This document shows, piece by piece, positions 2,836-59,068 of a stretch of 64,000 bases of DNA; the first letter of the stretch is position 1, and each line of letters opens with the position of its first letter. Location of the stretch: assembly GCA_000991245.1 (NCBI GenBank), contig LBRD01000008.1, forward strand, positions 1,686 to 65,685, written 5' to 3'. Under the pieces are notes generated by a model. It was not told the DNA's origin and did no database searches. It saw nothing but the letters and a program-made list of their open reading frames with translations. Source of the DNA: Parcubacteria group bacterium GW2011_GWC1_36_108. GTDB taxonomy: Bacteria > Patescibacteriota > Minisyncoccia > Moranbacterales > GWC2-37-73. Made by a program: the position numbers and the translations under genes.

Positions 2836-2892
2836 GGTAGAGACGCAAAATCTGTCAGGCATTGTAGAGACGCAAAATTTTGCGTCTCTACC
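2836..2892. repeat. REP/BIME-like element (copy 1) 3' of the RAYT gene
   Basis: ggtagagacgcaaaatctgtcaggcattgtagagacgcaaaattttgcgtctctacc. It is a 14-bp-arm palindrome (gtagagacgcaaaa/ttttgcgtctctac) preceded by a third direct copy of the arm. Confidence 0.8.
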
Positions 2893-2899: not shown

Positions 2900-3502
2900 C
2901 TATATCCAAACATTTTCAATATTATTCCGGTCACGTTCCCACATTTCAGGGTTTGTTTGGATATATTCACGAATTTTATTCAATGACTCATCATTTCTGA
3001 TGACGTGATCGTAAAATCGAGGTTGCCAGGTAAAATTCAAATCGTTAATTGTTGCATATTTTTTAACACCAATTTTAAACCCACGAATAATGGATGCCAG
3101 ATTTTTTGATTGTGATCCAAATTTATTTTGTGGACACGGTAGAGACGCAAAATCTGTCAGGCATTGTAGAGACGCAAAATTTTGCGTCTCTACGCATTGT
3201 TGAATATTATTCCAATTTATTTCAATAACAACATGCACGTGATTTGGCATGACCACAAATTCAGATGCGTTCGCATGTGGAAAATGTTGTGGGATTTCTT
3301 GCAAACAATTTTCTGCGATTTTTCCAATCTCATTCAAAATCATTTTTCCATCGATAATTTCTCCAAAAAATTCTTCGCGGTTTTTTGTGCAGATCGTGAC
3401 GAAATACATTCCGTTTTGCGCGTAATCATAATTTTGCAAACGGGATGATTGGATGCGGTATTTGTTTTTGAATTTTTCCGGCATGGGTTTTTTGTCGGGC
3501 AC
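2900..3502 (-). CDS. rayT: IS200/IS605-family Y1 (HUH) transposase of the REP-associated RAYT type, carrying an in-frame REP insertion
   Basis: HUH motif MPNHVHVVIEI and a C-terminal catalytic-Tyr region WQPRFYDHVIRNDESLNKIREYIQTNP. The gene is flanked by REP palindromes. A 57-nt REP copy sits inside the ORF between the HUH and Tyr motifs and translates as VETQNFASLQCLTDFASLP. Confidence 0.8.
   Translation of the reverse strand: MPDKKPMPEKFKNKYRIQSSRLQNYDYAQNGMYFVTICTKNREEFFGEIIDGKMILNEIGKIAENCLQEIPQHFPHANASEFVVMPNHVHVVIEINWNNIQQCVETQNFASLQCLTDFASLPCPQNKFGSQSKNLASIIRGFKIGVKKYATINDLNFTWQPRFYDHVIRNDESLNKIREYIQTNPEMWERDRNNIENVWI
3138..3193. repeat. REP element (copy 2), a near-identical duplicate of copy 1, embedded in frame inside the RAYT coding sequence
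   Basis: ggtagagacgcaaaatctgtcaggcattgtagagacgcaaaattttgcgtctctacg is identical to 2836-2892 apart from the terminal base. Confidence 0.8.
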
Positions 3503-3532
3503 GGTAGAGACGCGATTAATCGCGTCTCTACG
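3503..3532. repeat. REP palindrome variant (gattaat spacer) between the RAYT start and the stop of the giant gene
   Basis: ggtagagacgcgattaatcgcgtctctac is a perfect 11-bp-arm hairpin. The same 28-mer recurs at 20378-20405. Confidence 0.8.
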
Positions 3533-3540
3533 GGTTTGGT

Positions 3541-6500
3541 TTATTTTCTAATTGTTGTTGTGCCGGTTTCTCTGACTTCAACTTGTCCGAAATGATAAAG
3601 TTGCCCAATTTCATTGGCGGAAAGGGCGCGGTTGTAGATGCGGACATCGTCGATTTTACCATTAAATGTTCGATCTCCTGCAACATTATTTCCAATTGTC
3701 ATTGCTGTAGAACCTGAGCCAACTACCCCAGTCTTGGCTGCGCTAGCAACAGAAACTCCATCCAGATAAATTGAAACATTCGCTCCATCATACACGCAAT
3801 CAACATGATGCCAGCTATTGTATTTTCCAGAAAGCGGACTAGTTGTGCTTCCAACAGCTGTCACGCCAATATCACATTCAAGATTATTACCAACAAACAA
3901 AAAATTATATGAGCTGCCATTTCCTTTTTCAATAATACGACCAAAGCTAGTTCCTATTCCACTTGTTCTTGGATTTATCCAAGCGCTCAAAGTAAGTTGC
4001 GACATACCATCCAAATTATCTTTATCTGGAACTGTTACTACATTAGTCGCCACGCTAAAATCTGTTCCCTGTCCCAACTTCCCAATCGCTTTGGTTGCAC
4101 CGGAAATTGTGCCGTTATTATTATTTCCAGAAGTGTCTTTGGCAGTTGTGCCGGAAATATCTTTGCCGTCAAAGGTCCAATGCCCGACGAGACCAGCGTC
4201 AAGATTAGGCGATGAAATTTGAGATTGCTGCACAACTTCAGAAAATTCATCAGCGCCGATGTCCCAATCTCCAGCGCGACCTTGCCCGTCAATATCCTCG
4301 CCAAAATGCAAATACGAATCAGCTTGTAAATTTAAACCTGTTTTTCTAGCTACAGTATCAGAAACTGAAAGATGGAAATCCTTATTGGCAGCATCAACAA
4401 AAGCTACTGTGGTTGAATTTTTTGAGTTAGCGCCAGGAGCATCAGCAGCGAGGTCGGAGATGTTGTAATCAGACCCAGCTAAAAATGTACCCTTATACCC
4501 ATCCGTTGAACCTTGCACAATATTATTTTTTGCCACAATAGAGGATCCGGCTAAATCATAAATTCCAGCATTTGTTCCCCCATAAACAGTGTTATTGTAA
4601 GCATACAATGTTTTACCTGCACCATCATAATATCGACAAATTCCTGCACTTCCTCCATAAACAATATTATTATAAACATAAGCAGACTTGGGAGTCGTAC
4701 TTTGCCCATCAATTCTAATACCATAACTTGCCCCATAAGAAGATTTGATAATTGAATTTGAAATTTTTACAGCATTAGGCCCGCTTGAAACATACACGCC
4801 ATCATTACCTATATTAAATTGCAAGCCATCAGCCACAAGATACGATGAATTCAACTGGAAAGAACCGTTCACATCTATTCTAAATTTAGTATCGTCCCAT
4901 TTTCCCTGATGTCTTTGGTTTGTATTTGATTCTGTTGTTGTGCTGACTGGGGTATAAATCTTGATATAATTCGCAGGACTTGTTGTATATGCTGATATTA
5001 TTAAATTTGTATTATTCACACTACCATCGTTATAACAAGGTAGGTTTAATTGATAATTTCCTGTTACTAAATTTGAAGTGTTTAGATAATTCACGCCAGC
5101 CGCATAATTAATGCCATTTCCAATGGCGTAATTAATTAAATTGAAGGTGTGTGCAATTGAATTAACAGTTTGCCCAGTGACATTGGTGGGAGTTGCGCCT
5201 GTTGCGGTGATGAGTTTCCACTGCGATGTCGAAATTTTTTCTGAAATATACGCAACTGATGTTGTGTTGTATGTAACTTTATCACCCACTCCCATGTTCG
5301 TCGCAGTCTGCGCCTCGGAAAAAGTCGCAATGCCCGATGCGATAGTCACCGTTGGTGTGCCGGTTTTATGATCGGTAGTATTTTGCCCGACGGAATAATA
5401 AATTGCGGTTGCGGCTTCATCAGCGCCGATATCCCATATTGTACTTGAAGACGATGGGCGTGTTTGTCCATCGATATCATTGGTGAATGCAAGATTAATA
5501 TCCGCTGATAAGTCAGCGCCGGAATTTTTCGCAGCAGTGTCACTAGTGCTTAAGTGGAAATCTTTATTGGCAGGATCAGCAAAAGCGACGGTGGTGGAAT
5601 TTTTAGAATTGGCACCAGGTGCATCGGCGACAAGATCGGAAATATTATAGTTTGAAGATGGGTGAAAATTAGAACTAGTAAAACCATCGATACAATTTTG
5701 AGCAATATTATTCTTTAAAATAGTGTCCATGTACCCATTAGTATAATATCCGACAATTGCATCTTTGACCGTATTATTGTAAACAACAGCACGCAAAACA
5801 TCGCCACCTGCATTTCCACCAATACCTTTTTTAAAGCCGTAAATGATATTATTCCAAACTTTCAAATTAAAATTTCCGGCAGTCAAATTATATTGGATTC
5901 CAAATATATTTGTTCCACCGCTTCCAGCATACTGAAGTATATTGTTTGAAACATAAGAATTTTTATCCATGTCAATTCCAATTTGATCATAGCCAGATGT
6001 AGATGAGTTTTTTATTTGCAAACCATCAACATGTACGAATTGGTTGTTGATGTTAACATTATATGCACCCACACTTGAAACATTTAGGTTGTATTTTCCA
6101 TCATCCCATTTCCCCTGATGTCTTTGGCTTGCATTTGCTTCGGTTGTCGTGCTTATTGGAGTATAAATTCTGATATAGTTTGCTGGCGCAGTAGTATATC
6201 CTGAAACTGTCACTGCGGTAGTATCCGCAGCACTGTCGTAATAACAAGGAAAATTGAGCTGATAATTTCCAGTGACCAAACCGGTGGTATTCAAATGATT
6301 TACATCAACTGCACCTGTAACTGCAGCTGAAAGAGAAGTGTACTCGTGTTTTATTGAAACCACTGTTGAAGTCGTGATGTCTGCAGGAACTGCACCAGTT
6401 TTTGTAACTAAATTCCAAACTGAAGTGGAGGTTTTTGATGCAATATATGCAATGTCAGTTGTGTTATATGTCACCCTATCCCCAACTCCAATATTTCCAG

Positions 6501-9500
6501 TCTGAGCTGCTGAAAAAGTTGCAACTCCACTTGTAATTGTAATAGTTGGTGTGCCAATTTTAAGGTCAGCAACTGATTGCCCGACAGAATAATAGATTGG
6601 GGCTGCAGCTTCGTCGGCACCAATATCCCATATTGTGCTTGAAGATGATGGACGGGTTTGATTGTCGATGTCAGTCGTGAACAAATATGACGAATCTGAT
6701 GACAAATCTACACCAAAATTGCGTGCAGCAGTGTCGGTAGGAGAAAGATGAAAGTCTTTATTAGCAGCATCTGCAAAAGCGACGGTAGTGGAATTTTTGG
6801 AATTAGCTCCTGGAGCATCAGCAGCGAGATCTGAAATATTATAATCAGAAGTAACATTAAATGTTCCCAAAAAACCATCGCCACAATTTTGAGTAATGTT
6901 GTTTTTTAATACAGCTTGACCAATAGTAGAATGTCGAAATCCAACACTTGCTATCAAACGCAATGTATTATTGTATGCATATGAATTAACACCAGACCAA
7001 CTGTCCAGATTCATACCATTATTAACGTTATTGATTATATTATTAGAAATATATGCTCCTCCTGCAGTTGAGCCATTTGCTGAAATACCTGTGCCATTGT
7101 TAGATGGGAACTCGTCATGGATATAATTACTATCAATGGTAATATATTTTATTCCTGGAAAATACAAAGCGGATGAGGCAAACCCTGGATTTCCAAAATC
7201 AGTAATCTCCAAACCGACAAGTTTTACATATGGAATATTTAAAGCAATCGCATTTCCATTGGTTGAAGGATTAATAAGATAATTAACTCCCGTCGCTTTC
7301 CCTTGATGCCTTTGACTCACATTAACTTCAGTAGTTGTGTTATTTGGGGTATATATTTTTATATAATTTGCAGGACCAGTCGTATATCCATCAACCGTCA
7401 CTACTGTTGTGTCTGCGCCAGAATCATAATAGCAAGGGAAATTAAGTTGATAATTTCCCGCTACCAAATCTGCAGTATTTAAGTGAGTAGCATCAACAGC
7501 ACCAGCTTCTGCAGCGGAAAGTGAGGCGTAGGCGTGAGCGATTGAAGTTACATCTGCATCAGTGACAGCGGTCGGAGCAGCGCCTATTGCGCTTTGACAA
7601 CCCCAGACTGTGGTTGAGGTTTTGTTTGTAATATAGCAAGCTCCACCAGTGTATGTTACCAAATCTCCAACGCCCATATTTGTTGCAGTTTGCGCGACTG
7701 AGAAAGTTGCAGTTCTGGCGGTTGCATCAACTGTAACAGTGCCCGCTCCAGTTTCATGTGAGGTTGTGTTTTGTCCGACGGAATAGAAAATTGCGGTTGC
7801 GGCTTCGTCAGCTCCAATATCCCAAGCATTTATAGTTACATTTCGAGTTTGACCATCTATGTCAGTGTTGAAGGTAAAATTAGAATCCGCTGATAAGTCG
7901 CTACCAGAGTTCTTCGCTGATGTGTCACTAGGACTTAAGTGAAAATCTTTATTAACAGCGTCGGCGAAGGTAACGGTTTGATTTATTTTTGCATTAGCGC
8001 CTAGTGCTGATGCATCTTTAGAAAGATTTTTATTTGAAAGACTTGAATAATTAATCGCTGCGCTTCCGTTTGTACAATAATCATATGAACCATTATTATA
8101 TGACAAATTATTAATAGCAACAATGTCATAATAAGATGACTCGCTAATGCCACAATTACTATTGCCATACAAAGTATTATTATAAACAAATGCGCTATTA
8201 TCAAAATAATTACCAATACCTATACCTTTAGACCAACCATACACAATATTATTGTAAATATAAACTTGCGAACTCGATAAAACATTATTTTCTACTATTA
8301 TGCCACTTTCACTACTAGCACCACCAGTATATTTAATAATATTATTTGAAATATCGACCCCTTTATTAGTACCTCCTACAGAAATACCATCAAACCAAGA
8401 ATTATTACCTGTTTGATCAAGTTGTAATCCAGAAATGTATACGTAATTTATATTTGCCAATATTAAATCCATGCTACCACTACGCAAAACATATCTCCCA
8501 TCATCCCATTTCCCTGAATGTCTTTGCGAATTATTCGCTTCAGTTGTAGTGTTGTTTGGTGTATAAATTTTAATATTATTTGATGGCGAAGTTATGTACC
8601 CAGAAACAGTTACCGTAGTTGTATCCGCACCAGAATCATAATAACAAGGAAAATTAAGCTGATAATTTCCAGCAACCAAATCTGTAGTATTTAAATGGGT
8701 GGCATCAACAGCGCCAGCTTCGGCAGCTGAAAGTGAAGAGTACGCGTGTGTGATTGAAACTACAGTTGAATCGGTTATATTAGCAGGAATTCCTCCTGTA
8801 GCGGTTACTAAATTCCAAACAGAAGTAGAAGTTTTTGAGGAGATATATGCAACATCGGTTGTGTTATATGTGACTTTGTCGCCCACTCCCATATTTGTGG
8901 CAGTTTGAGCCACAGAAAAAGTTGCAACTCCAGATGCAATAGTCACGGTTGGCGAACCAGTTTTATGATCATTTGTGTTTTGTCCGACAGAATAATAGAT
9001 TGCAGTGGCAGCCTGATCCGCACCAATGTCGTAGAGACGTCCATTTATGGCGTCTCGCCCCTGTCCATCTATATCAGTCGTGACCGGAAGATTAGCATCC
9101 GCACTCAAATCCGCGCCAGCATTTTTGGCAGCAGTGTCATTTGGAGAAAGGTGGAAGTCTTTATTGGCAGCGTCGGCGAAGGACACAATCGTCTCAATTT
9201 GATCTTGCGCACCGCCTGTATTTGAAGAATCATCAGAAATATTATAGTTAGAAGCAGAATCAAAACTACTAGCGTACGCACTACCTCCTGTGTTTTGCAC
9301 AATGCAATTTTTAATAAGCGGACTATATCCTTCAGTATATATTCCATTTTCAGAGCCGCCAGAACCATAAACGGTATTATTATAAAATACGTTTTGGACA
9401 CTTCCTCCGAATCTTAATGCAACAACCCTGCTTGCTGAGGAACCGTAAAAAATAGAATTCTTTACGCTAGAACCATCTGTACCATATAACTGAATAGCGT

Positions 9501-12495
9501 ATCCAGTTCCCGTGTTTTTAGAAATACAAGAATCAAACTCAACATAATCATAATCAGGACCAAAAACAATAGTAGTCCAAGCAGTACTTGACGATGTAAC
9601 TTGCAACCCCATTATTTTTGTATAACTTTGCTGTATCGTAAGCGTGTTCAAAGATCCGCCAGAAAGAGCATATCTGTCGTCATCCCACTTCCCGTTATGC
9701 CTTTGTGAAAAATTGGCTTCGTTAGTCGTGTTGTTCGGTGTATAAATCTTAATAAAATTGCTTGCACCAGTGGTATATCCCGTAACTGTCACGGCTGTCG
9801 TGTCTGCAGCAGAATCATAATAACAAGGGAAATTTAATTGATAATTTCCAGTGACTAAATCCGTTGTGTTTAGATGATTAGCATCAACTGCACCTGTGAC
9901 TGCAGCGGAAAGAGAGGTGTACTCGTGTTTTATTGAAACGACGGTTTGGGCGGCGGCTCGATCAGTTGGAACGCCACCACGAGGATTGATAAGGTTCCAA
10001 ACACTGGTTGATGTTTTAGATGAAATGTAGGCAATATTTCCAACAAATTTTGCTGCACCACCAGCTTCTGCGACATACGTTTTTGTAATATCAAGATTTG
10101 TAGCATCAGAAACGTTAGTGATTTGATAAATTCCATTATAATTTGTCGTGCCAGAAATGGTGATGTAATCATATTGAGAAAAACCATGAGCGGCACTGGT
10201 TGTTAGTCTTGTTGTTCCACCACCCTGATCTGCAAAAGTCGTGATATCAATTTGACCATAAGTCACCCGATCGCCAACTCCAATATTCCCAGTCTGCGCT
10301 GCTGAAAAAGTTGCAGCTCCACTTGCAATTGTGACAGTTGGAGTGCCGGTTTTTAAATCAGAAGCAGATTGCCCGACAGAATAAAAAATCCCTGGTGGAT
10401 TTGAAAAACTCCAACCAGTGTTGCCGGAAACATTAGCAGAATTTGCACCCGCATACCAAGCCGCACCACCGGTGGCAGCGATATCTTGCAGTGACAAATA
10501 GTTACCAGCCACAATTCCGTTTGTTTTTTTGAGAGTTGCTGAAGTGCCAGGAGTTGAAGAATTTATTGTAATGAGATTGCCTGAAGTTCCAGTAGCAGTG
10601 AAAAGACCGTTGATTGTTTGGGTTGTGCCGGAAGTAAATTTAACTGTCTTTGGCGCATTAATAGTAAGATTATTGAAAGTGTTGGAACCAGCAATAGTTG
10701 TCGCGCAGTCGCCAGTATTTAAAGTTACATTATTATAAACCAAGCCACCAAATTCAACAGTTTGCGTGGCGCTAGTAAAGTCTTCTATTTTCAATGTTGA
10801 TGTTTCGGCGTTTAAATTTAAATTTGTTATTGTTTGCAAGTTCCAAGGACTTGATGATTGATATGCATTTCCCATTGTCCATATGCCACTTCCCATTAAG
10901 ATTGATCTTGTATTAGAATTGCTTGATGAAAAATTGTTACATGAAACATTAAAATTATTAGCATCGAATGTTCCATTATTCAAAATCAGTGTCCTGCCAT
11001 TTCCTGCCGAAGAATCAAAGTTATCCTGCAATGTTAATATTCCGCCAATCATTGAAATATTAACATTAGCAACACCTGTCATAAAAACTTTTCCAGCACT
11101 TGTCAGTGAATATGATCCCCTGCCTTCGAAGGTTAAGTGCTGCGATTGACCAAATGTCATACCAGAAATCAATGTCAACGAACCATACAATGTATTGGGA
11201 GTTGACGTTAACGAAAAAGTCGGCGAATTTGTCGCTCCCGTCCAAGAAATACTTTTGCCCAAGCGCGGCATATCTGCCACTACTGTTTTACCAGTCGCTG
11301 CAAAAGAATTTGCATCAAAAACCACATCGTCTTGAGGTAGCGGCACGCGACCTGCTCCACCCCCGCCATTGGTAGCCAAAAACCAATTGCCGATTGTTGA
11401 CCAATTGTCCGAAGCACTAGCTCCGTGTTTCCAATATTGCGGTGCACCAGTGGTAAACGTAATTCCAGAATTTCCCCCAGCATCTCCGCTTCCGCCAGAA
11501 ATTGCGGACAAATCCCAACTTCCAGCACCAGCACCAATAATATCACGAAAATCTGCATTGATAACAGAAACATTAGCAGCTGTGATTGTGCGAGCACTGC
11601 CGAGAGTATTTGAGGTAACAAAAAGTCTATTGATTGCAGAATTACCTGCGAAAGTTATCATGTTTGATACAGTAATGTTTCCGGGTAATGACAATGAATT
11701 AGTTTTTGCTGTTGCCGTAGCCCAAGTAAAATTATGACAAGATATATTACCACCATAAAGCAAAAAAGCTGGATCGGTAAATTCTAGATCATAATAAGTT
11801 TGAGAAGATGTAGCAAGAAATTTACTAGTGCTTGTACTTTTAATGAGAGACGTTCCAGCATCCAAAGTACCAATAAACCCCCAAGTATAATCGCCAACAC
11901 TTGTCCTTGATAAAGTTAGCGTGCTGCTGCCAAGATTTATAGAACCAGATGCACCAGTAATTGTATCACTGACTGATATATTATAATTATTCGTATTAAA
12001 TGTTGCGACAGAATATGAGGAATTAACTTGTATTTTATATAGTGAAACATCAGCACCCAGTGTTGTTGTTCCTCCTGCCACATCAAGTGTCAACCCTGCC
12101 ATATCTTGTCCTGCAAAATCTGGCACAACAACTCCCCTTGTTCGCAAGCTTCCATACCCACCAACTACTGTCGTCATACCGCTTACAAGTTTAAAGATAT
12201 TTCCAGCTAAATCTATGCGCGAACTATTATTCCAAGTCAGTGTTCCAACATAATTAGTCATATCAAATGTGTTGCCTAAACACGCAGAATAATCACAGGT
12301 TAAATTTCCGCTTGTTGCCGTTGCTACAATATCATCAACAAGAGTCGGCACCGCGCCCTCCACCCAAGTTCCAGCCGCACTCCAATTTCCCCCAGCATCA
12401 GAAATTGTGCGGGTGGCAGCTTGAGCTTGGGACGTGAAAAAAACCGCGGAGAGCAGAAAGGTTAATACAAAAATTGTAGGCTTGAGAAAATTCAT
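3541..12495 (-). CDS. Giant secreted surface protein (2984 aa) built from repeated beta-sandwich plus parallel beta-helix modules, with a C-terminal LamG/ConA-like lectin domain
   Basis: N-terminal signal peptide MNFLKPTIFVLTFLLSAVFFTSQAQA|AT. About 7 tandem ~400-aa modules each contain (A)TAIYYSVGQ…HLNTTDLVAGNYQLNFPCYYDSG…IKIYTPNNTT…SQRHQGKWDD, then NNxIxxN beta-helix rungs, then a KDFHLSPSDTSAKNSGSDLSAD…TDIDGQTR linker. The C-terminus carries the LamG signatures LVGHWTFDG…DDVRIYNRALSANEIGQLY. Confidence 0.85.
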   Translation of the reverse strand: MNFLKPTIFVLTFLLSAVFFTSQAQAATRTISDAGGNWSAAGTWVEGAVPTLVDDIVATATSGNLTCDYSACLGNTFDMTNYVGTLTWNNSSRIDLAGNIFKLVSGMTTVVGGYGSLRTRGVVVPDFAGQDMAGLTLDVAGGTTTLGADVSLYKIQVNSSYSVATFNTNNYNISVSDTITGASGSINLGSSTLTLSRTSVGDYTWGFIGTLDAGTSLIKSTSTSKFLATSSQTYYDLEFTDPAFLLYGGNISCHNFTWATATAKTNSLSLPGNITVSNMITFAGNSAINRLFVTSNTLGSARTITAANVSVINADFRDIIGAGAGSWDLSAISGGSGDAGGNSGITFTTGAPQYWKHGASASDNWSTIGNWFLATNGGGGAGRVPLPQDDVVFDANSFAATGKTVVADMPRLGKSISWTGATNSPTFSLTSTPNTLYGSLTLISGMTFGQSQHLTFEGRGSYSLTSAGKVFMTGVANVNISMIGGILTLQDNFDSSAGNGRTLILNNGTFDANNFNVSCNNFSSSNSNTRSILMGSGIWTMGNAYQSSSPWNLQTITNLNLNAETSTLKIEDFTSATQTVEFGGLVYNNVTLNTGDCATTIAGSNTFNNLTINAPKTVKFTSGTTQTINGLFTATGTSGNLITINSSTPGTSATLKKTNGIVAGNYLSLQDIAATGGAAWYAGANSANVSGNTGWSFSNPPGIFYSVGQSASDLKTGTPTVTIASGAATFSAAQTGNIGVGDRVTYGQIDITTFADQGGGTTRLTTSAAHGFSQYDYITISGTTNYNGIYQITNVSDATNLDITKTYVAEAGGAAKFVGNIAYISSKTSTSVWNLINPRGGVPTDRAAAQTVVSIKHEYTSLSAAVTGAVDANHLNTTDLVTGNYQLNFPCYYDSAADTTAVTVTGYTTGASNFIKIYTPNNTTNEANFSQRHNGKWDDDRYALSGGSLNTLTIQQSYTKIMGLQVTSSSTAWTTIVFGPDYDYVEFDSCISKNTGTGYAIQLYGTDGSSVKNSIFYGSSASRVVALRFGGSVQNVFYNNTVYGSGGSENGIYTEGYSPLIKNCIVQNTGGSAYASSFDSASNYNISDDSSNTGGAQDQIETIVSFADAANKDFHLSPNDTAAKNAGADLSADANLPVTTDIDGQGRDAINGRLYDIGADQAATAIYYSVGQNTNDHKTGSPTVTIASGVATFSVAQTATNMGVGDKVTYNTTDVAYISSKTSTSVWNLVTATGGIPANITDSTVVSITHAYSSLSAAEAGAVDATHLNTTDLVAGNYQLNFPCYYDSGADTTTVTVSGYITSPSNNIKIYTPNNTTTEANNSQRHSGKWDDGRYVLRSGSMDLILANINYVYISGLQLDQTGNNSWFDGISVGGTNKGVDISNNIIKYTGGASSESGIIVENNVLSSSQVYIYNNIVYGWSKGIGIGNYFDNSAFVYNNTLYGNSNCGISESSYYDIVAINNLSYNNGSYDYCTNGSAAINYSSLSNKNLSKDASALGANAKINQTVTFADAVNKDFHLSPSDTSAKNSGSDLSADSNFTFNTDIDGQTRNVTINAWDIGADEAATAIFYSVGQNTTSHETGAGTVTVDATARTATFSVAQTATNMGVGDLVTYTGGACYITNKTSTTVWGCQSAIGAAPTAVTDADVTSIAHAYASLSAAEAGAVDATHLNTADLVAGNYQLNFPCYYDSGADTTVVTVDGYTTGPANYIKIYTPNNTTTEVNVSQRHQGKATGVNYLINPSTNGNAIALNIPYVKLVGLEITDFGNPGFASSALYFPGIKYITIDSNYIHDEFPSNNGTGISANGSTAGGAYISNNIINNVNNGMNLDSWSGVNSYAYNNTLRLIASVGFRHSTIGQAVLKNNITQNCGDGFLGTFNVTSDYNISDLAADAPGANSKNSTTVAFADAANKDFHLSPTDTAARNFGVDLSSDSSYLFTTDIDNQTRPSSSSTIWDIGADEAAAPIYYSVGQSVADLKIGTPTITITSGVATFSAAQTGNIGVGDRVTYNTTDIAYIASKTSTSVWNLVTKTGAVPADITTSTVVSIKHEYTSLSAAVTGAVDVNHLNTTGLVTGNYQLNFPCYYDSAADTTAVTVSGYTTAPANYIRIYTPISTTTEANASQRHQGKWDDGKYNLNVSSVGAYNVNINNQFVHVDGLQIKNSSTSGYDQIGIDMDKNSYVSNNILQYAGSGGTNIFGIQYNLTAGNFNLKVWNNIIYGFKKGIGGNAGGDVLRAVVYNNTVKDAIVGYYTNGYMDTILKNNIAQNCIDGFTSSNFHPSSNYNISDLVADAPGANSKNSTTVAFADPANKDFHLSTSDTAAKNSGADLSADINLAFTNDIDGQTRPSSSSTIWDIGADEAATAIYYSVGQNTTDHKTGTPTVTIASGIATFSEAQTATNMGVGDKVTYNTTSVAYISEKISTSQWKLITATGATPTNVTGQTVNSIAHTFNLINYAIGNGINYAAGVNYLNTSNLVTGNYQLNLPCYNDGSVNNTNLIISAYTTSPANYIKIYTPVSTTTESNTNQRHQGKWDDTKFRIDVNGSFQLNSSYLVADGLQFNIGNDGVYVSSGPNAVKISNSIIKSSYGASYGIRIDGQSTTPKSAYVYNNIVYGGSAGICRYYDGAGKTLYAYNNTVYGGTNAGIYDLAGSSIVAKNNIVQGSTDGYKGTFLAGSDYNISDLAADAPGANSKNSTTVAFVDAANKDFHLSVSDTVARKTGLNLQADSYLHFGEDIDGQGRAGDWDIGADEFSEVVQQSQISSPNLDAGLVGHWTFDGKDISGTTAKDTSGNNNNGTISGATKAIGKLGQGTDFSVATNVVTVPDKDNLDGMSQLTLSAWINPRTSGIGTSFGRIIEKGNGSSYNFLFVGNNLECDIGVTAVGSTTSPLSGKYNSWHHVDCVYDGANVSIYLDGVSVASAAKTGVVGSGSTAMTIGNNVAGDRTFNGKIDDVRIYNRALSANEIGQLYHFGQVEVRETGTTTIRK

Positions 12496-12561
12496 TAGTA
12501 GAAAAATTTTAAATTTTAAGTTTTAAATTTTAATTGAAATTATAATTTCCAAATAAACAAA

Positions 12562-12918: not shown

Positions 12919-12963
12919 TTTTAATTTAGATTTGATTTAAAATTTAAAACTTAAAATTTAAAA

Positions 12964-14219: not shown

Positions 14220-14240
14220 TTTGTTTGCATTTAAATTGAA

Positions 14241-17300: not shown

Positions 17301-20300
17301 GCAAAGGAATAATTATCATAAATTCCATAAGAAGCTTGCCCATATATTAATGAATTTATGATATTTATCACTGAGGTATTATGATAACTTATTTGAATAC
17401 CAGTATTGCTTCCAGTTGTAACTGGTCCACCACGTATAATGCAATCTTTTATTGTTGTAACTCCACTTCCAGCATTTAGAGAATAGCTAGAGGAACCTCC
17501 ATTTCCTCCTGGAGCATATGCATATGTTTGAATGCCCTCAATTTTATTAAACTGAGTCCCTATACTCATTATTACGCCATAATCAGGAAGTTTTAACTTG
17601 TATTTCCCATCGTCCCATTTCCCCTGATGCCTTTGCGAATTATTCGCTTCAGTGGAAGCATTATTTGGTGTATAAATTTTAATAAAATTATTTGCCCCGG
17701 TAGTGTAGCCAGAAACAACAACTGCAGTCGTGTCTGCAGCGCTATCATAATAGCAAGGGAAATTAAGTTGATAATTTCCTGTCACTAAATCCGTAGTATT
17801 CAAATGATTAGCATCAATTGCTCCAGTGACTGCAGCAGAAAGAGAAGTGTATTCATGTTTAATTGAAACGACGGTTGAAGTTGTGATGTCAGCAGGAACT
17901 GCTCCAGTTTTTGTCACAAGATTCCAAACTGAAGTTGATGTTTTTCAGCAACTGATTGCCCGACAGAATAATAGATTGCGGTTGCTGCTTCGTCGGCGCC
18001 GATATCCCATATTGTGCTTGAAGATGATGGACGGGTTTGATTGTCGATGTCAGTGTTGAATGCAAAATTAGCATCCGCTGATAAGTCGCTACCAGAATTC
18101 TTCGCTGATGTGTCGCTAGGACTCAAGTGGAAATCCTTATTGGCTACGTCGACAAAAGATACTGTCTGATTTATCTTTGAATTGACTGGGTTGGTCAAAT
18201 TATTGGCAGTTGCGTCAGAAGAAATATTATTAACGGAACTTTTTCCATCATTCAGGTAAGCTGATACAACATTATAATCAATTACATTTCCAAATGCGAT
18301 ATTATTACCAAAACCAGCCAAAGATTTATACATATTTGTACCACCAAAATACGCTCCAGTCCCACACCCATACATTGTATTATTATAATAAACATTATTA
18401 CTATAATTACCCTGTTGATCAATGCTTAATCCAGCCACATCAAAATTATAAATAATATTATTAAAAGATTTAAAATTATATCCAAAACGAACAGCTATAC
18501 CACTGTGACCAGTAGTACTTGATTCTCGTTTTAAAATGGAATTTTTAAGTGTTACATAATCAGCATAAGAATTACCAAAAGCATTGGTTGATAACGTGCC
18601 AGCCACAGAAATTTGTAACCCTTCAATTACAGTGTAGTCCTGGTCATTATTGATATATAAAGCATTTGTGCCAGTTGCAGGCACGAGTTTGTATTTCCCA
18701 TCATCCCATTTTCCAGAATGCCTTTGACTCTGATTTACTTCGGTTAAAATATTATTCGGCGTATAAATTTTTATAAAATTACTTGCCCCAGTTGTGTATC
18801 CAGAAACTGTAACCGCAGTTGTATCCGCGCCAGAATCATAGTAGCAAGGGAAATTCAATTGATAATTTCCAGCCACCAAATCCGTTGTATTCAAATGGGT
18901 AGCATCAACTGCGCCAGCTTCGGCAGCTGAAAGTGAAGAGTAGGCGTGGGCGATTGAAGTTACATCGGCATTTGTGACTGCAGTAGGGGCTCCGCCAGTG
19001 GCGGATTGACAACCCCAGACTGTGGTTGAAGTTTTTGATAAAATATAGCAAGCTCCGCCAGTGTAAGTTATCAAATCGCCCACTCCCATATTTGTTGCAG
19101 TTTGCGCGACTGAGAAAGTTGCGGTTCTAGCAATGGCATCTACCGTAACAGTGCCGCTGCCTGTTTCATGAGAATTGGTATTTTGTCCGACACTGTAATA
19201 GATGGCTGTTGCCGCTTCGTCAGCGCCAATATCCCATATTACACTTGAAGACGATGGACGCGTTTGCCCGTCGATGTCAGTATTAAATGCAAAATTAGAA
19301 TCCGCTGATAAGTCGCTACCGGAATTCTTCGCTGATGTGTCGCTAGGGCTTAAGTGAAAATCTTTATTGGCAGCGTCGGCGAAGGCGACAGTGGTGGAAT
19401 TTTTGGAATTCGCACCAGGTGCATCGGCGGCGAGATCGGAAATGTTATAATCTGACCCAGTAAAATTACCAGAGTACACATGAAATCCATCAATATTATT
19501 TTGCGAAATAGAATTTTTTACAACGAAAGTACCGTAATTAGCCCAATAACCGTTGGTTGTATTATATATAGTATTATTATTTGCATACAATATACCGCCA
19601 ATACTATTATTAAATCTCAATCCTATACCACTTGAAGCGTCATATAATATATTATTATAAACCTTATTAATTCCGGAGGAAGCTATATTAACAAGCGTCG
19701 CATTATTACCTACAGTACTCTTTACAATTGAATTGCCAAGTTCCAAATTATTCCCAGCTGCACCAAAAAATATAGCGCCATCTCCGCCAGTTATAAGTGT
19801 TTTTTGTATCTGCAATCCTTGAATTTTTGAATACGGGATATTTACATACAATGCATTAGCCGCATTTGCAACCAATCTATACTTCCCATCATCCCACTTT
19901 CCCTGATGTCTTTGGCTTACATTGGTTTCAGTAGTCGTGCTTGTTGGAGTATATATTTTGATATAATTTGAAACACCTGTCGTATATCCAGAAACTGTCA
20001 CCGCCGTTGTATCCGCTGCACTGTCATAATAACAAGGGAAATTGAGCTGATAATTTCCTGTTACTAAATCTGTAGTGTTGAGATGATTGGCGTCAACCGC
20101 ACCAGTAACTGCAGCAGACAAACTTGTGTATTCATGTTTAATTGAAACGACGGTTGAAGTTGTGATGTCAGCAGGAACTGCTCCAGTTTTTGTCACAAGA
20201 TTCCAAACTGAAGTTGATGTTTTTCCACTTGCAATTGTGACAGTCGGCGTGCCAGTTTTTAAATCAGCAGCAGATTGCCCAATTGAATAGTAGATTGCAG

Positions 20301-20493
20301 TGGCTGCGTGTGCCTGTGAGGAAAACGCGAAAAAACCGATAGCGAAAAATGCCGCCGCCAAGAAAAATCGAACACCCGTAGAGACGCGATTAATCGCGTC
20401 TCTACCATGCGCGTCTCTATCACGATTTTTTGAAAAATATTTTGTTATTTTTACCAATCGCTCATGAGCGAAAGGTTTTGATTTTAGATTCAT
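14324..20493 (-). pseudogene. Giant surface-protein paralog split into two overlapping ORFs (896-aa N-terminal part 17914-20604 and 1197-aa C-terminal part 14324-17917) by a frameshifting intragenic deletion; either a pseudogene or an assembly collapse in repeats
   Basis: The N-terminal ORF has a signal peptide (…GVRFFLAAAFFAIGFFAFSSQAHA|ATAIYYS) and the same module types as 3541-12495. It stops at …AIYYSVGQSVAEKHQLQFGIL*. The next ORF restarts 4 nt earlier, mid-module (MTKTGAVPADITTSTVV…), and carries three C-terminal LamG-like domains. At the junction about 140 nt of an otherwise conserved module are missing. Confidence 0.6.
20378..20424. repeat. REP palindrome (identical 28-mer to 3505-3532) plus a partial extra arm, lying in frame in the 5' region of the giant paralog
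   Basis: gtagagacgcgattaatcgcgtctctac-catgcgcgtctctatcacg, translated in the ORF as …NRDRDAHGRDAINRVSTG…. Confidence 0.75.
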
Positions 20494-20551
20494 TTTTTCA
20501 TGCTTAAGTTTCTTAAGACACTTAAGGTTCTTACTAAGATTCTTATGTTTC

Positions 20552-21115
20552 TTAATATCCCCTGTATTCCCGTCTTTTTCTGTGCAACTCCTCTGAAAGA
20601 CCACCTTCTTTTTGATGCTTCAATTTCAACGCCTCAACTTGGCGATGGAGAAGCAATGTTGCTTGATGGCAAAGCGTCAGCAGAAAATTTGCAGCTTCTT
20701 CACTTTGCTCTGGTAGTTCAATTGTTTTCAGGAGCTCTTCGGTTTCATACTCCTTGTTTAAGACGCTTAAGTTACTTAGGTTTCTTACGAGTGTCGCGCT
20801 TCGCGCTCGCAGTGCGAGTACTCGCGAGTCATTTTTGTCCCATTTAGAAAGTTTTCTCTGACGCAAAAAATCTTCCAGATCACCAGTCAATTCTTCCAAG
20901 GACCCCTTGGCGATGCCCGTGAGGTTGATGGCCACTTTTAGAGAAACATCCATGTCATCCGAGCCTTCCACGATGTTTTGTTTTCCACTTCTGGCTGCAC
21001 CATCCATTTGCTCTTTCAGTTTCCAACTTTTTATCCATTTTTCAGCAAACTCAACCTCTCGGTCATAGATGATGACCGAAAACCAATAGGTATAAAGTTT
21101 TTTGTATGGTTGCAT
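20552..21115 (-). CDS. Four-helix-bundle protein paralog (Avd-like/TIGR02436 core plus C-terminal extension)
   Basis: QMDGAARSGKQNIVEG…GIAKGSLEELTGDLEDFLRQRKL, and a C-terminus matching the 13656-14219 product. Confidence 0.6.
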   Translation of the reverse strand: MQPYKKLYTYWFSVIIYDREVEFAEKWIKSWKLKEQMDGAARSGKQNIVEGSDDMDVSLKVAINLTGIAKGSLEELTGDLEDFLRQRKLSKWDKNDSRVLALRARSATLVRNLSNLSVLNKEYETEELLKTIELPEQSEEAANFLLTLCHQATLLLHRQVEALKLKHQKEGGLSEELHRKRREYRGY

Positions 21116-56310: not shown

Positions 56311-56760
56311 ATGGAAGAAAAAGAGATAACGATGCTTCGCACCAAGCTCATCAGCACAGCCAGAACACTGCTAACACAGCTTCATGACATTATCCCAGAA
56401 GAACCTCTGGGAAGTTTCAAAGGTGGAGATGGTTTGGAATCAGAAGGAATGATTGTTAACCATACTCAAAATGTGATTGATGTTAGTCGCAAAGAAGGGA
56501 ATGTGGAAATTATCACAGAATGCCTGCGATCGTTAGAAAAAATCGACGAAGGTTCTTACGGCGAATGCGATGAATGCGAAAAGCCTATCGCCACTGGCCG
56601 CTTGAAACTTTCCCCTTATTCCAATCTTTGCACTCAATGCAAAAGCGATCAGGAAAAAGCCAACAAACACCTGTGCATTGTTTCTGATCAGGGACCACAC
56701 TCCTGCGTTAGCATCAAAACAATCAGGCAGCGCCTGTATTCGTGCATCGCACACGCCTAA
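56311..56760 (+). CDS. DksA/TraR-family C4 zinc-finger protein
   Basis: C-terminal CDECEKPIATGRLKLSPYSNLCTQC (C4 finger) preceded by a coiled-coil region. Confidence 0.7.
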   Translation: MEEKEITMLRTKLISTARTLLTQLHDIIPEEPLGSFKGGDGLESEGMIVNHTQNVIDVSRKEGNVEIITECLRSLEKIDEGSYGECDECEKPIATGRLKLSPYSNLCTQCKSDQEKANKHLCIVSDQGPHSCVSIKTIRQRLYSCIAHA

Positions 56761-56771
56761 AAATTACCCCG

Positions 56772-56806
56772 CCCCGGGAACAGAAATGTTTCCGGGGATT
56801 TTTTTA
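56772..56806 (+). terminator. Rho-independent terminator after the dksA-like gene
   Basis: ccccgggaaca-gaaa-tgtttccgggg followed by atttttttatt. Confidence 0.65.
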
Positions 56807-56857
56807 TTCCCAAGATTATCACTAGATACAAAATATCCAATGAGCTATAATTTAAGT

Positions 56858-59068
56858 ATGGATTTTTTGAAGATGAAATTGGAAAAACTGCCGCGCATAG
56901 GGATGAAATATGGCGCAATTTTAAAAAAACTCAACATTGAAACGGTGGAGGATTTTTTGTTGCACTTCCCTTTTCGCTATGAAGATTATTCTGAGCGAAT
57001 CTTAATTGAAAATCTTGCCGCTGGCGAAACGGCGACTGTGATGGGAGAAGTTGTCCAAAGTAAATTGGTGCGCACTTGGAAAAAGAAGATGATGATCACG
57101 GAGTGCTTCGTGAGCGACGAAACTGGCACAGTGAGGGCTGTGTGGTTCAATCAACCCTATGTCAGTGATTCACTCACTGCTGGTAAGGGTGTTAGACTTG
57201 CTGGAAAAGTTTCGCAAGATACAAAAGGAATGTTTTTTTCCAATCCAGCTTGGGAACTTTCTTCTCGCACCCCAACCAATACAGGAAGGCTTGTCCCAAT
57301 ATATCCAGAAACTGAAGGGCTTACTTCAAAATGGATTCGTTGGCAAATGCAAAACATGATTAAATATGCTGATGCGCTTATTGATCCAATTCCGGAAAAT
57401 ATTTTAAAAGGTTTACATTTACCAATCCTAAGTGAAGCTGTAAAATCTTTGCACTTTCCAAAAACTCTCAAGGAATTTGAACTTGCGCAAAAACGTTTCG
57501 CTTTTCAACAAATGTTTTTGGTGCAACTTGCAACTCAGCGTGTCAAAATTTCATGGGACAAACAAAATGCTGTTTCAATTGCTTTTAATGAAACGTTAAC
57601 CAAATATTTCGTCGAGTCACTTCCCTTCACTCTCACTGACGCTCAACGCAAAGCCGCCTTTCAAATTTTGAAAGATTTGGAAAAGCCTTTGCCAATGAAT
57701 CGCTTGCTCAATGGCGACGTGGGCAGCGGAAAAACAATCGTGGCCGCTATGGCTTGTTTAAGTGCCATTAATGCTGGTTTTCAAGTTTCAATAATGGCTC
57801 CAACTGAAGTGCTCGCCAAACAACACTATCTAACACTTTGTGGACTATTTAAAAATAGTGAAATAAAAATAGCATTGTTTACCAATTCATATCGTGAGAT
57901 AAATAATTTCCAATTTCCAATTTCCAATTTCCAAATAAATCCAAATGTTGAAAATCCAAAATTAAAAAATACAAAAAAAATACGAGATTCACGGGATGAT
58001 TTTTTAGAAAAATTAAAATCTGGGGAAATTAATTTAGTTATTGGGACTCATGCACTGATTCAAAAAGATATTCATCCTGTTAAATCCCCGACTAATGGTC
58101 GGGGTGCGAAGCAATTTAACAGGGTAAAATTTAAAAATTTAGCTTTAATTATTATCGATGAACAACATCGTTTCGGTGTGGCTCAACGTGCTTTTTTGCA
58201 ACAGCAGATTGCTGATATTAACGACGGCTTGCCTGGTAAGATTCCGCATTTGCTCACGATGACAGCAACTCCGATTCCCCGCACACTGACTTTGGCTTTT
58301 TTTGGAAATCTGGATATTTCAGTGTTGGATGAAATGCCAAAAAATAGAAAACCCATTGTCACTGAGATTATTTTGCCAAGCAAGAGAAAAGATATCTATG
58401 ATTTTGTGCGCAGCGAAATTTCCAAAGGTCATCAAGCTTTTATCATTTTTCCACTTGTTGAAGAATCGGAAAAACTAACTGAACTAAAAGCTGCAACCCA
58501 GGAACACGAAAGATTGTCTCGGGAAATTTTTCCAGATTTAAAATTAGGACTCCTGCACGGAAAATTAAAGGCTAGTGAAAAAGAGCAAGTGATGGCTGAT
58601 TTTAAAGATAAGAAATATAACATTTTAGTCGCCACCAGCGTGGTGGAAGTTGGTATTGATATTCCAAATGCTACTGTGATTGTGATTGAAGATGCAGAAA
58701 GATTTGGTCTTTCGCAACTTCATCAATTTCGCGGACGAGTCGGCAGATCAGACAAACAATCATATTGTTTTCTTTTTACTGGCAGCAAAACCGTCAAAGC
58801 CAAATCGCGCCTAGGTGCAATGGAAAAAACATCCAGCGGTTTTGCGATTGCCGAAGAAGATTTGAAACTGCGTGGTCCCGGAGAATTTCTTGGCACGCGT
58901 CAATCCGGTCTTCCCGACATCGCCATGGAGCATTTGTCCAACGTAAAGCTCATTGAAATCGCCCATGATTATGCCGAGCAAACACTGCAAAACAGTCCCG
59001 ATTTGGCAGACTATCCCCTTTTGCAAAAAGAGCTTGGAAAATTCCAAAGTAATGTACACCTTGAATAA
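56858..59068 (+). CDS. recG: ATP-dependent DNA helicase RecG, with low-complexity in-frame insertions
   Basis: Wedge/OB N-terminal region, helicase motifs GDVGSGKT, DEQHRFGV, TATPIPRT, and a C-terminal domain. The ORF is open upstream to 56678, but the start is assigned at MDFLKMKLEKLP. An insertion …[37 protein letters not shown]… lies between motifs I and II. Confidence 0.9.
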   Translation: MDFLKMKLEKLPRIGMKYGAILKKLNIETVEDFLLHFPFRYEDYSERILIENLAAGETATVMGEVVQSKLVRTWKKKMMITECFVSDETGTVRAVWFNQPYVSDSLTAGKGVRLAGKVSQDTKGMFFSNPAWELSSRTPTNTGRLVPIYPETEGLTSKWIRWQMQNMIKYADALIDPIPENILKGLHLPILSEAVKSLHFPKTLKEFELAQKRFAFQQMFLVQLATQRVKISWDKQNAVSIAFNETLTKYFVESLPFTLTDAQRKAAFQILKDLEKPLPMNRLLNGDVGSGKTIVAAMACLSAINAGFQVSIMAPTEVLAKQHYLTLCGLFKNSEIKIALFTNSYREINNFQFPISNFQINPNVENPKLKNTKKIRDSRDDFLEKLKSGEINLVIGTHALIQKDIHPVKSPTNGRGAKQFNRVKFKNLALIIIDEQHRFGVAQRAFLQQQIADINDGLPGKIPHLLTMTATPIPRTLTLAFFGNLDISVLDEMPKNRKPIVTEIILPSKRKDIYDFVRSEISKGHQAFIIFPLVEESEKLTELKAATQEHERLSREIFPDLKLGLLHGKLKASEKEQVMADFKDKKYNILVATSVVEVGIDIPNATVIVIEDAERFGLSQLHQFRGRVGRSDKQSYCFLFTGSKTVKAKSRLGAMEKTSSGFAIAEEDLKLRGPGEFLGTRQSGLPDIAMEHLSNVKLIEIAHDYAEQTLQNSPDLADYPLLQKELGKFQSNVHLE
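57895..57922. repeat. (AATTTCC)x4 heptanucleotide array inside recG; the same unit as in ligA
   Basis: aatttccaatttccaatttccaatttcc encodes [10 protein letters not shown]. Confidence 0.8.

What the first reader, a model, noticed from the sequence alone, without database searches (positions are those of the whole stretch)
9028..9068. REP-like palindromes embedded in frame in protein-coding DNA of the giant genes
Within one module of the 2984-aa gene, the usual linker …DIDGQTRPSSSSTIWDIGAD… is replaced by …DIDGQGRDAINGRLYDIGAD…. This is the same length, and is encoded by cgagacgccataaatggacgtctctac, an imperfect version of the REP core (gagacgc…gcgtctctac; REP translation RDAINRVST).

A perfect REP 28-mer also lies in frame in the 5' part of the 896-aa ORF (20378-20405, translated NRDRDAHGRDAINRVSTG), upstream of its signal-peptide hydrophobic core.

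Taken together with the RAYT case, REPs in this genome appear to tolerate or target coding sequence in a frame-preserving way.
Basis: seen in the sequence. Interest (0 to 1): 0.55.

Follow-up and report, generated by a model that had tools for sequence, protein, structure and literature searches.

The report
Decayed REP palindrome inside a giant gene
A short mobile DNA palindrome (REP) that normally sits between genes has been built, in frame, into a variable loop of a giant surface-protein gene of a groundwater Moranbacterium; the event is real, but events of this kind have been described before.

Summary
Window 9031-9059 matches the local REP family (GTAGAGACGC-N8-GCGTCTCTAC) at 17 of 20 arm bases with a 9-nt loop. 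This is the only near-match in the window. About 0.003 are expected by chance, and 25 homologous linkers reach only 10-13 of 20. It lies in frame in the intact 2984-aa gene and fills the whole variable loop between the conserved DIDGQxR and DIGAD motifs. It replaces a loop that was probably RPTGAG(I/V)V, for a net gain of one codon.

The second REP (20378-20405, plus a half-arm) is perfect. Related loci share the same leader and place the start codon just after a CTTAAG-repeat array, so translation most likely starts at ATG 20493. That would make the REP cluster 14 translated codons (about 65% likely).

Perfect palindromes of the same family lie in frame in ten Pfam-confirmed genes from other phyla. 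One is a Moranbacterial RecG, where the REP also overwrites native sequence.

The general claim is not new. Intragenic GTAG REPs (Di Nocera 2013), Rickettsia RPEs, and REPs inside subclass 2.4 RAYT genes (Quentin 2018) are published. Frame preservation is what selection leaves behind, not evidence of targeting. Verdict: a new member, in a new host lineage, of a known kind.

The parts
9031..9059 (.). Decayed REP: GTAGAGACGT-CCATTTATG-GCGTCTCGCC. It matches 17 of 20 arm bases, has a 9-nt loop, and keeps GTAG only at the + strand 5' end.
   Evidence: The RNA hairpin is -12.4 kcal/mol, against -20.9 for a perfect copy.
9016..9075 (-). Module-1 linker codons DIDGQGRDAINGRLYDIGAD of the 2984-aa protein. 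The REP-derived bases encode (G)RDAINGRLY, the whole variable loop between two conserved motifs.
   Evidence: Homologous linkers follow R(P)x2-6[WV]DIGAD.
3541..12495 (-). Intact 2984-aa secreted multi-module protein (beta-helix modules, C-terminal LamG) that hosts the decayed REP.
20378..20405 (.). Perfect 28-nt REP, GTAGAGACGCGATTAATCGCGTCTCTAC.
   Evidence: The hairpin is -26.4 kcal/mol with flanks.
20411..20420 (-). REP half-arm (ATAGAGACGC) 5 nt from the palindrome. Cluster 20377-20418 is 14 in-frame codons, RDAHGRDAINRVST.
20491..20493 (-). Most likely start codon of the 896-aa ORF (MNLKSKPF...). It has the A-rich upstream context typical of this genome. It overlaps the TGA of a 3-codon mini-ORF that begins at the conserved ATG 20499-20501.
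20359..20361 (-). Alternative downstream start (TTG). It would leave the REP in the 5' UTR but give a signal peptide with no K or R.
17914..20604 (-). 896-aa ORF as listed (longest GTG start). It is the 5' part of a gene that is 2166 aa in other assemblies.
2900..3502 (-). RAYT (TnpA_REP) with NHVH, WQ and YIQTNP motifs. A REP doublet lies inside it (half-arm 3139-3148, palindrome 3166-3193).
3504..3531 (.). Perfect REP immediately upstream of the RAYT start, identical to the copy at 20378.
2837..2891 (.). REP doublet (half-arm plus AAAATTTT-loop palindrome) just downstream of the RAYT stop, identical to the internal doublet.
56678..59068 (+). RecG of this genome. It serves as the 'empty-site' comparator for the REP-bearing RecG of Moranbacterium UBA4824 (L061).

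Best explanation
The window comes from Candidatus Moranbacteria GW2011_GWC2_37_73 (Rifle groundwater, candidate phyla radiation (CPR)). It carries a REP/RAYT system: a subclass-2.4-type RAYT at 2900-3502, and 28-nt perfect palindromes GTAGAGACGC-N8-GCGTCTCTAC.

One REP copy entered the coding DNA of the 2984-aa surface protein. It landed in the loop between the conserved DIDGQxR and DIGAD motifs. That loop varies from 3 to 16 residues among homologues, so it tolerates foreign sequence. The REP took the place of the native loop (probably RPTGAG(I/V)V) with a net gain of one codon. The open RDA... frame of the palindrome was used, and a 1-nt insertion in the right half keeps DIGAD in frame. The copy has since decayed: 3 arm mismatches and a weaker hairpin. 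It is now ordinary coding sequence, with no function of its own inferred.

A second, perfect REP cluster of 42 nt sits between the probable start codon (ATG 20493) and the hydrophobic core of the signal peptide of the neighbouring giant gene. There it most likely adds 14 residues to the n-region.

Shown: REP identity, the frame, intact flanking motifs, atypical loop sequence, stability across assemblies, and parallels in other genomes. Inferred: the ancestral loop, the order of events, translation of the second REP, and the absence of function.
For: REP family and RAYT in the window.

Focal match: 17 of 20 arm bases, with about 0.003 expected by chance. No hit in 100 shuffles. Homologous linkers reach at most 13 of 20.

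The loop is atypical. More than 45 homologous linkers follow R(P)x2-6[WV]DIGAD, whereas the focal loop has no P, no W or V, and carries the REP peptide RDAIN. By flanking sequence the closest relatives form the ANLP[VI]TTDIDGQxRPTGAGxVDIGAD subfamily.

The sequence is identical in 4 assemblies, including a recombinant with a different downstream module.

Perfect REPs of the same family lie in frame in 10 genes whose Pfam domains span or flank the REP. In Moranbacterial RecG (L061) the REP replaces a native helix segment with net -2 residues, judged against this window's own RecG and PDB 1gm5.

Start codon: three related loci share the leader ...ctaagaaacttaaRNATGaaa, followed at once by a signal peptide. 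This genome has no Shine-Dalgarno motif; its start codons are preceded by A-rich sequence, as ATG 20493 is. The only arginine of the n-region lies between the REP and the downstream TTG.

Literature: intragenic GTAG/CGTC REPs (PMC3733652); REP insertions inside subclass 2.4 tnpA_REP genes (PMC6006769).
Against: No orthologue with an 'empty' focal site was found, so the ancestral loop is inferred from paralogues and more distant homologues. The loop variant CATAAATG was not seen in another REP copy in the about 326 kb of related DNA held. A one-step history cannot be reconstructed for the focal copy, which has a 9-nt loop, an extra base and one non-GTAG end.

For the second REP there is no homologue of the N-terminal 24 residues. 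The n-region would be unusually long: 66 residues before YYS, against 24-53 in homologues. In the window, the conserved ATG of the leader is out of frame and opens only a 3-codon mini-ORF. No expression data are available.
Confidence: 0.75

Rival explanations
1. Chance resemblance. The focal linker is an ordinary variant of a hypervariable loop, and the palindrome is coincidental, helped by QxR codons that resemble the REP arm.
For: Paralogous linkers already contain partial arm matches: cAGACGCGA in module 16919, and ACGCG...CGTCTTC in the PSSSS linkers. They score 12-13 of 20. The loop length and one end differ from the canonical REP.
Against: The match is 17 of 20 arm bases, and the loop bases next to the arms (CCAT/ATGG) pair as well. 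About 0.003 such hits are expected per window, none appeared in 100 shuffles, and none of 25 homologous linkers exceeds 13. The peptide RDAIN equals the in-frame translation of a perfect REP in the same window.
Confidence: 0.04
2. The 20.4-kb REP is not coding. Translation starts at TTG 20361, and the REP cluster lies in the 5' UTR, the usual extragenic position. It would act at most as an RNA or DNA structural element.
For: Di Nocera et al. found that most REPs in annotated 5' ends are extragenic. With TTG 20361 there are 23 residues before YYS, against 24-35 for most homologue signal peptides. In L142 an internal ATG-CGA (M-R) aligns with the window's GTT-CGA right next to the REP, which suggests an older start there. 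No homologue of the upstream 24 codons was found.
Against: TTG 20361 has T-rich context, unlike real starts here. It gives MAAAFFAIGFF... with no K or R. The conserved leader and ATG lie upstream in three related loci. The frame is open from 20604 onward, while the other two frames are full of stops.
Confidence: 0.3
3. REPs actively target coding DNA in a frame-preserving way, or the embedded hairpin has a selected function, such as a RAYT site that drives module shuffling or a pausing signal.
For: Three in-frame cases occur in one window. In-frame REPs recur in many phyla, including three in T9SS C-terminal domains. The + strand of the focal copy keeps the 5' GTAG plus a hairpin.
Against: REPs are depleted, not enriched, in long open frames. 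The unit is 28 nt, and one of its three frames contains TAG. Net length changes vary from -2 to +10 residues. The focal hairpin is decaying. The module deletion in L141 is explained by the long AATAIYYSVGQNT repeats, not by the REP.
Confidence: 0.06

Closest known systems
Intragenic GTAG-/CGTC-tagged REPs (Di Nocera, De Gregorio & Rocco 2013, BMC Genomics 14:522, PMC3733652)
   Same: These are short GTAG-tagged palindromes of a RAYT-associated family found wholly inside ORFs and translated as part of apparently functional proteins. Singles and dimers both occur. Many hosts are DNA-repair genes, which parallels the RecG case in L061. The paper gives the same caveat that N-terminal cases may be extragenic.
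   Different: The host lineage (CPR/Moranbacteria) and host gene (a modular beta-helix/LamG surface protein) are not among those described. The focal copy is decayed, and it replaces a loop rather than adding 10-30 residues.
Rickettsia palindromic elements (RPE; Ogata et al. 2000; from my own knowledge and as summarised in PMC3733652)
   Same: Palindromic repeats inserted in frame in protein-coding genes without destroying the protein, typically in surface loops.
   Different: RPE-1 is much longer (about 100-150 bp, adding 30-50 residues), has no known RAYT partner, and is restricted to Rickettsia. The element here is a 28-nt GTAG REP with a cognate RAYT next to it.
TnpA_REP (RAYT) subclass 2.4 with REP insertions inside the transposase gene (Quentin, Siguier, Chandler & Fichant 2018, BMC Genomics 19:475, PMC6006769)
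   Same: [quoted passage not shown] That taxonomic range matches where the same REP arms were found.
   Different: That paper reports REPs inside the RAYT gene itself, not in unrelated host genes. CPR is not named there.
REPIN/RAYT systems of Pseudomonas and E. coli (Bertels & Rainey 2011; Nunvar 2010; Ton-Hoang 2012; from my own knowledge)
   Same: A single-copy RAYT flanked by its cognate GTAG hairpins, plus dispersed copies and doublets.
   Different: Those elements are overwhelmingly extragenic and belong to other RAYT groups (2 and 3), with lineage-specific sequences. Here identical 10-bp arms are shared across phyla.

Membership tests
REP (GTAG-tagged repetitive palindrome) | Short (20-40 bp) G+C-rich imperfect or perfect palindrome able to form a stem-loop | tested here: met
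   The four window copies are perfect 28-mers, at -20.9 kcal/mol. The focal copy forms 9 pairs with one bulge, at -12.4 kcal/mol.
REP (GTAG-tagged repetitive palindrome) | Conserved GTAG tetranucleotide at the 5' foot of the hairpin | tested here: met
   All perfect copies have GTAG at both ends. The focal copy has GTAG on the + strand only; the other end is GGCG.
REP (GTAG-tagged repetitive palindrome) | Repeated in the genome | tested here: met
   The 64-kb window holds 4 perfect palindromes and 3 half-arms. 12 arm matches were found, against 0.74 expected. Related contigs add a third loop variant. A whole-genome count was not possible.
REP (GTAG-tagged repetitive palindrome) | Cognate RAYT gene flanked by the same hairpins (REPtron) | tested here: met
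   The RAYT at 2900-3502 has a REP at 3504-3531 and a doublet at 2837-2891.
REP (GTAG-tagged repetitive palindrome) | Extragenic location | tested here: not met
   The focal copy lies inside an intact 2984-aa ORF, between conserved motifs. This is the known 'intragenic REP' exception (PMC3733652), so it does not argue against REP origin.
REP (GTAG-tagged repetitive palindrome) | Binding or cleavage by the cognate RAYT | not testable with these tools
   Needs biochemistry.
TnpA_REP / RAYT subclass 2.4 (Quentin 2018) | HuH motif NH[IFV]H, WQ, and catalytic YIxNNP | tested here: met
   NHVH, WQ and YIQTNP (5 of 6) are present in the 200-aa product. Pfam Y1_Tnp scores 29.5 bits, above its 23-bit cutoff. 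NCBIfam REP_Tyr_transpos scores 58.5 bits, below its 80-bit cutoff, split in two by the insert. No phylogenetic placement was done.
TnpA_REP / RAYT subclass 2.4 (Quentin 2018) | REP sequence inserted within the tnpA_REP gene | tested here: met
   [quoted passage not shown] RAYT homologues from other phyla carry the palindrome within the RAYT-homologous match; for L007 I estimated the same relative position.
Rickettsia palindromic element (RPE) | Palindromic element of about 100-150 bp belonging to the Rickettsia RPE sequence families | tested here: not met
   The element is 28-29 nt, has a different sequence and comes from a CPR host. It works like an RPE (an in-frame, tolerated insert) but is not a member.

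The most novel reading that the evidence does not exclude
REPs of the subclass-2.4 RAYT system may enter coding DNA by near length-neutral overwriting of a native segment, not by simple insertion, at places that already share 7-8 nt with the REP.

Two cases fit. In the focal loop about 21 nt became 24 nt, and the closest paralogue has cAGACGCGA against the REP's gAGACGCGA. In Moranbacterial RecG a perfect 28-mer replaces about 12 codons with 10, and this window's RecG has AATCGCGcCT against the REP's AATCGCGtCT.

This would imply a templated conversion or strand-exchange step, RAYT-mediated or by template switching, that has not been described for REPs. It could also help explain why identical 10-bp arms persist across phyla.
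Probability: 0.12. Interest if true: 0.6.

Novelty: new member of a known kind. Interest (0 to 1): 0.3.

Why it matters
It documents a REP/RAYT system, including translated REP copies, in a streamlined CPR genome. The paper library I searched links no such system with this lineage.

It gives a clean worked example of how a mobile palindrome becomes ordinary protein sequence in a length-tolerant loop.

For annotation: peptides such as RDAxxxVST and VETxxxASL in predicted proteins of many phyla mark embedded REPs. Starts of genes with 5' REPs need checking.

It does not change the current picture of REP biology, unless the overwriting-by-microhomology reading proves general.

Tried and rejected
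1. Strain-level 'empty sites'. Look-ups of the neighbouring 187-aa and 174-aa proteins returned 20 contigs from Rifle samples. All were identical at both REP sites, so there is no polymorphism to exploit.

2. Protein search with the focal module and a metagenome scan. The closest relative with a different sequence is about 49-55% identical. Only L141 (95% identical) carries the focal linker, and it is identical. No orthologue shows the pre-REP state.

3. Protein search with the N-terminus of the 896-aa ORF. Only one irrelevant hit came back, so the start codon could not be settled by N-terminal homology. It was approached through conserved leaders instead.

4. Shine-Dalgarno analysis. This genome shows no SD motif upstream of its genes, so only the A-rich context is informative. 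The promoter scan found nothing.

5. 'Always a multiple of three' as a property of the element: rejected. The palindrome is 28 nt and the shared doublet is 56 nt. Only the net change in surviving genes is 3n.

6. Direct descent of the focal loop from the paralogous loop by point mutation. Alignments give about 33% identity ungapped, and are unconvincing with gaps (own inspection).

7. The idea that PSSSS linkers are older decayed REPs. The match is about 65% over 26 nt with a gap and in a different frame. This is not significant, so I dropped it.

8. Literature search by REP sequence or peptide strings returned only unrelated primer matches.
Full report
**Source and setting.** The window comes from the Rifle groundwater population of Candidatus Moranbacteria GW2011_GWC2_37_73 (GCA_000990595.1). 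Exact-protein look-ups place its genes on contigs of that project. G+C is about 38%. Nearly all genes in the first 50 kb are on the minus strand. The region holds several giant secreted proteins built from repeated modules. Each module ends in ...DIDGQxR-(loop)-DIGAD-E-AATAIYYSVGQ..., and the proteins end in LamG domains.

**The REP family.** The window has four perfect 28-nt palindromes of the form GTAGAGACGC-N8-GCGTCTCTAC:
- 3504-3531 and 20378-20405, with loop GATTAATC.
- 2864-2891 and 3166-3193, with loop AAAATTTT.

Each of the last two is preceded by a half-arm, and there is another half-arm at 20411-20420.

A 200-aa IS200-like Y1 transposase gene lies at 2900-3502. It has a REP just upstream of its start, a doublet just past its stop, and an identical doublet inside the gene, between the HuH motif (NHVH) and the WQ / YIQTNP core.

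The hosts were Bacteroidota, Cyanobacteria, Chloroflexota, several CPR lineages and others, mostly with palindromic loops.

**The focal observation.** The quoted sequence is correct. On the + strand, 9031-9059 reads GTAGAGACGT-CCATTTATG-GCGTCTCGCC. That is 17 of 20 arm positions with a 9-nt spacer. Read on the coding strand, it is a canonical 28-mer with loop CATAAATG, one extra base before the right arm, and GTA changed to GGC at the 5' end.

It is the only near-match in the window. First-order Markov simulations, with eleven spacer lengths allowed, give 0.003 hits at 17/20 or better per window. The built-in dinucleotide shuffles give 0 of 100.

As an empirical control, 25 distinct homologous linkers from this window and from 16 metagenomic loci score 10-13 of 20.

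The segment is identical in four independent assemblies. One of them, L141, has a different module downstream, so the REP-derived loop predates that recombination.

**What it replaced.** More than 45 homologous linkers follow DIDGxxR-(P)-x2-6-[W/V]-DIGAD. The focal loop DAINGRLY lacks the P and the W/V. It shares RDAIN with the in-frame translation of the perfect REP at 20.4 kb.

By flanking sequence (ANLP[VI]TTDIDGQ...) the focal module belongs with linkers of the form RPTGAGxV, found in window module 16919, L142, L146, P0015 and P0022. The native loop was therefore probably 7 residues and is now 8.

Since the 29-nt element fills the entire loop, this is a replacement, not a simple insertion. 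The single extra base in the right half is what keeps DIGAD in frame. The hairpin is weakened, at -12.4 against -20.9 kcal/mol. This fits an old copy drifting as coding sequence.

**The second REP.** The palindrome at 20378-20405 and its half-arm form 42 nt (14 codons, RDAHGRDAINRVST) in the frame of the 896-aa ORF.

The start codon cannot be proved, but several lines favour ATG 20493:
- This genome has no Shine-Dalgarno motif. Genuine starts are preceded by A-rich runs, as 20493 is. The post-REP candidate TTG 20361 is preceded by T-rich sequence.
- TTG 20361 would give MAAAFFAIGFF..., with no basic residue. The only arginine lies between the REP and the TTG.
- Two related loci share the gene order and leader. 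These are L142/L161-165 (187-aa protein 95% identical) and L157-160 (Moranbacteria GWE1_35_17, 90% identical). Both have the 187-aa four-helix-bundle gene, an array of CTTAAG repeats, then ...ctaagaaacttaaRNATGaaa, followed at once by a canonical signal peptide (MKSRLRL..., MKTKFTIF...). Neither has a REP.

In the window the conserved ATG (20499-20501) opens only ATG AAA AAA TGA. That TGA overlaps the in-frame ATG at 20493. One more A in the A6 run would put the conserved ATG in frame.

Against this: the n-region would be long, at 66 residues before YYS against 24-53 in homologues. The 24 upstream codons have no homologue. In L142 an internal ATG-CGA aligns with the window's GTT-CGA right beside the REP, so the REP may have landed on or next to an older start codon.

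I put translation of the REP cluster at about 65%, and a 5'-UTR location at about 30%.

**Is in-frame embedding general?** In the 120 loci, 33% of perfect palindromes lie in stop-free frames of 200 aa or more, against 76% for random positions. So REPs avoid genes, but not absolutely.

Many of the apparent 'in-ORF' cases sit before the first start codon, which is the artefact Di Nocera et al. warned about. Ten others are unquestionably inside genes, with Pfam domains spanning or flanking the REP-encoded decapeptide:
- AcrB-family transporter
- CobN/ChlH
- MoeA
- HypE-like AIRS protein (a Parcubacterium)
- pullulanase
- molybdopterin oxidoreductase
- RecG (Moranbacterium UBA4824)
- three T9SS C-terminal sorting domains

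The palindrome has two open frames, giving VETxxxASL or RDAxxxVST. The third frame contains TAG.

Net length change differs from case to case:
- About +10 residues in HypE.
- About +9 in MoeA.
- About +7 in AcrB.
- -2 in RecG. There the perfect REP stands where this window's own RecG (53% identical) and T. maritima RecG have a native helix segment.

Frame preservation is therefore the outcome of selection on a 28-nt (3n+1) element, not a property of the element.

**Comparison with what is known.** Intragenic GTAG and CGTC REPs, often in DNA-repair genes, and the caution about N-terminal cases are described in Di Nocera et al. 2013. Rickettsia RPEs are the classic in-frame palindromes. REPs inside subclass-2.4 RAYT genes are in Quentin et al. 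2018.

What is new here is modest. The host lineage is new: no paper in the library I searched links RAYT with CPR. The host protein is a modular beta-helix/LamG surface protein. The focal copy is a decayed, loop-replacing one.

**A lead I cannot confirm.** In both replacement cases the comparator sequence shares 7-8 nt with the REP at the junction. For the focal loop this is cAGACGCGA against gAGACGCGA, and for RecG it is AATCGCGcCT against AATCGCGtCT. This hints at microhomology-guided conversion. With two cases and imperfect comparators it remains a hypothesis.

**Verdict.** Novelty: a new member of a known kind. Interest: 0.3.

Noticed in passing
window 20494-20551; L142 2160-2270; L157 3565-3636: The leader between the 187-aa four-helix-bundle gene and the giant gene is an array of CTTAAG-containing 8-10-nt repeats (cttaagaaa, cttaagtgt and similar). 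Copy number differs among three related Moranbacteria, and the array always ends in ...aaacttaaRNATGaaa. It may be a regulatory or slippage-prone leader.
   Followed up: partly
window 20491-20501: The conserved start ATG opens only a 3-codon mini-ORF (ATG AAA AAA TGA). Its stop overlaps the in-frame ATG (ATGA overlap). An A6 run separates the two ATGs, so a +1 slip would fuse them. This could allow termination-reinitiation or phase variation.
   Followed up: no
window 17945-17951 and about 20224, compared with L131 5414-5537 and about 3045-3135: Over 3000-20224 the window matches contig L131 at 99.99-100% identity, except for two deletions inside repeated modules. One is about 90 nt and in frame. 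The other is about 122 nt and breaks the frame, which splits a 2166-aa gene into the 896- and 1197-aa ORFs. This is either real strain variation or assembly collapse in repeats.
   Followed up: partly
loci L001-L120 (genome-contig scan): Identical 10-bp REP arms (GTAGAGACGC / GCGTCTCTAC) occur in at least 120 stretches of DNA from species across Bacteroidota, Cyanobacteria, Chloroflexota, Planctomycetota, Proteobacteria, CPR and others. The loops are mostly palindromic (ACGGCCGT, GATTAATC, AATGCATT, AAAATTTT, GCCATGGC...). This is striking cross-phylum conservation for a mobile hairpin.
   Followed up: partly
L031 3387, L078 5886, L097 3834 (also L014 6096): In Bacteroidota, perfect REPs lie in frame inside T9SS C-terminal sorting domains (Por_Secre_tail), encoding VETQNFASLP, VETQNFASLQ and VETQCIASLP. 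L014 encodes VETQNFASLP just before what looks like a sorting-domain sequence, but it was not Pfam-checked. This is a recurrent host site.
   Followed up: partly
L116 3593-7663: The cyanobacterial ChlH/CobN gene carries a perfect REP (VETHHGASLQ) and, farther on, a second imperfect REP-like peptide (RDAKFRVST). That makes two embedded copies in one essential gene.
   Followed up: no
L157-L160 1443-2916: In Moranbacteria GWE1_35_17, the homologous 187-aa gene and giant LamG gene are preceded by a diversity-generating retroelement cassette (bAvd plus reverse transcriptase) and an Lcl_C-domain gene. No such cassette lies immediately upstream of the 187-aa gene in the window, where the 2623-aa gene sits instead.
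   Followed up: no
window 12964-14309 and 20552-21115; L131 10571-10927: Small '23S rRNA intervening-sequence protein' / four-helix-bundle-suffix genes are interspersed between the giant genes. The family is very large: 1738 relatives at E <= 1e-20, and many of the named hits are from Patescibacteria (CPR).
   Followed up: no
L141 3604-3790, compared with window 8896-9075: A 95%-identical variant keeps the REP-derived linker but continues directly into the window's third module. This shows module loss or shuffling by recombination between the AATAIYYSVGQNT repeats.
   Followed up: partly
L123 10543, 12212, 12253: A related strain has a different gene order (1341-aa gene, AAA_14/DUF4143 gene, RAYT) and a third REP loop variant, ATTGCAAT. 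One copy there has a degenerate left arm.
   Followed up: no
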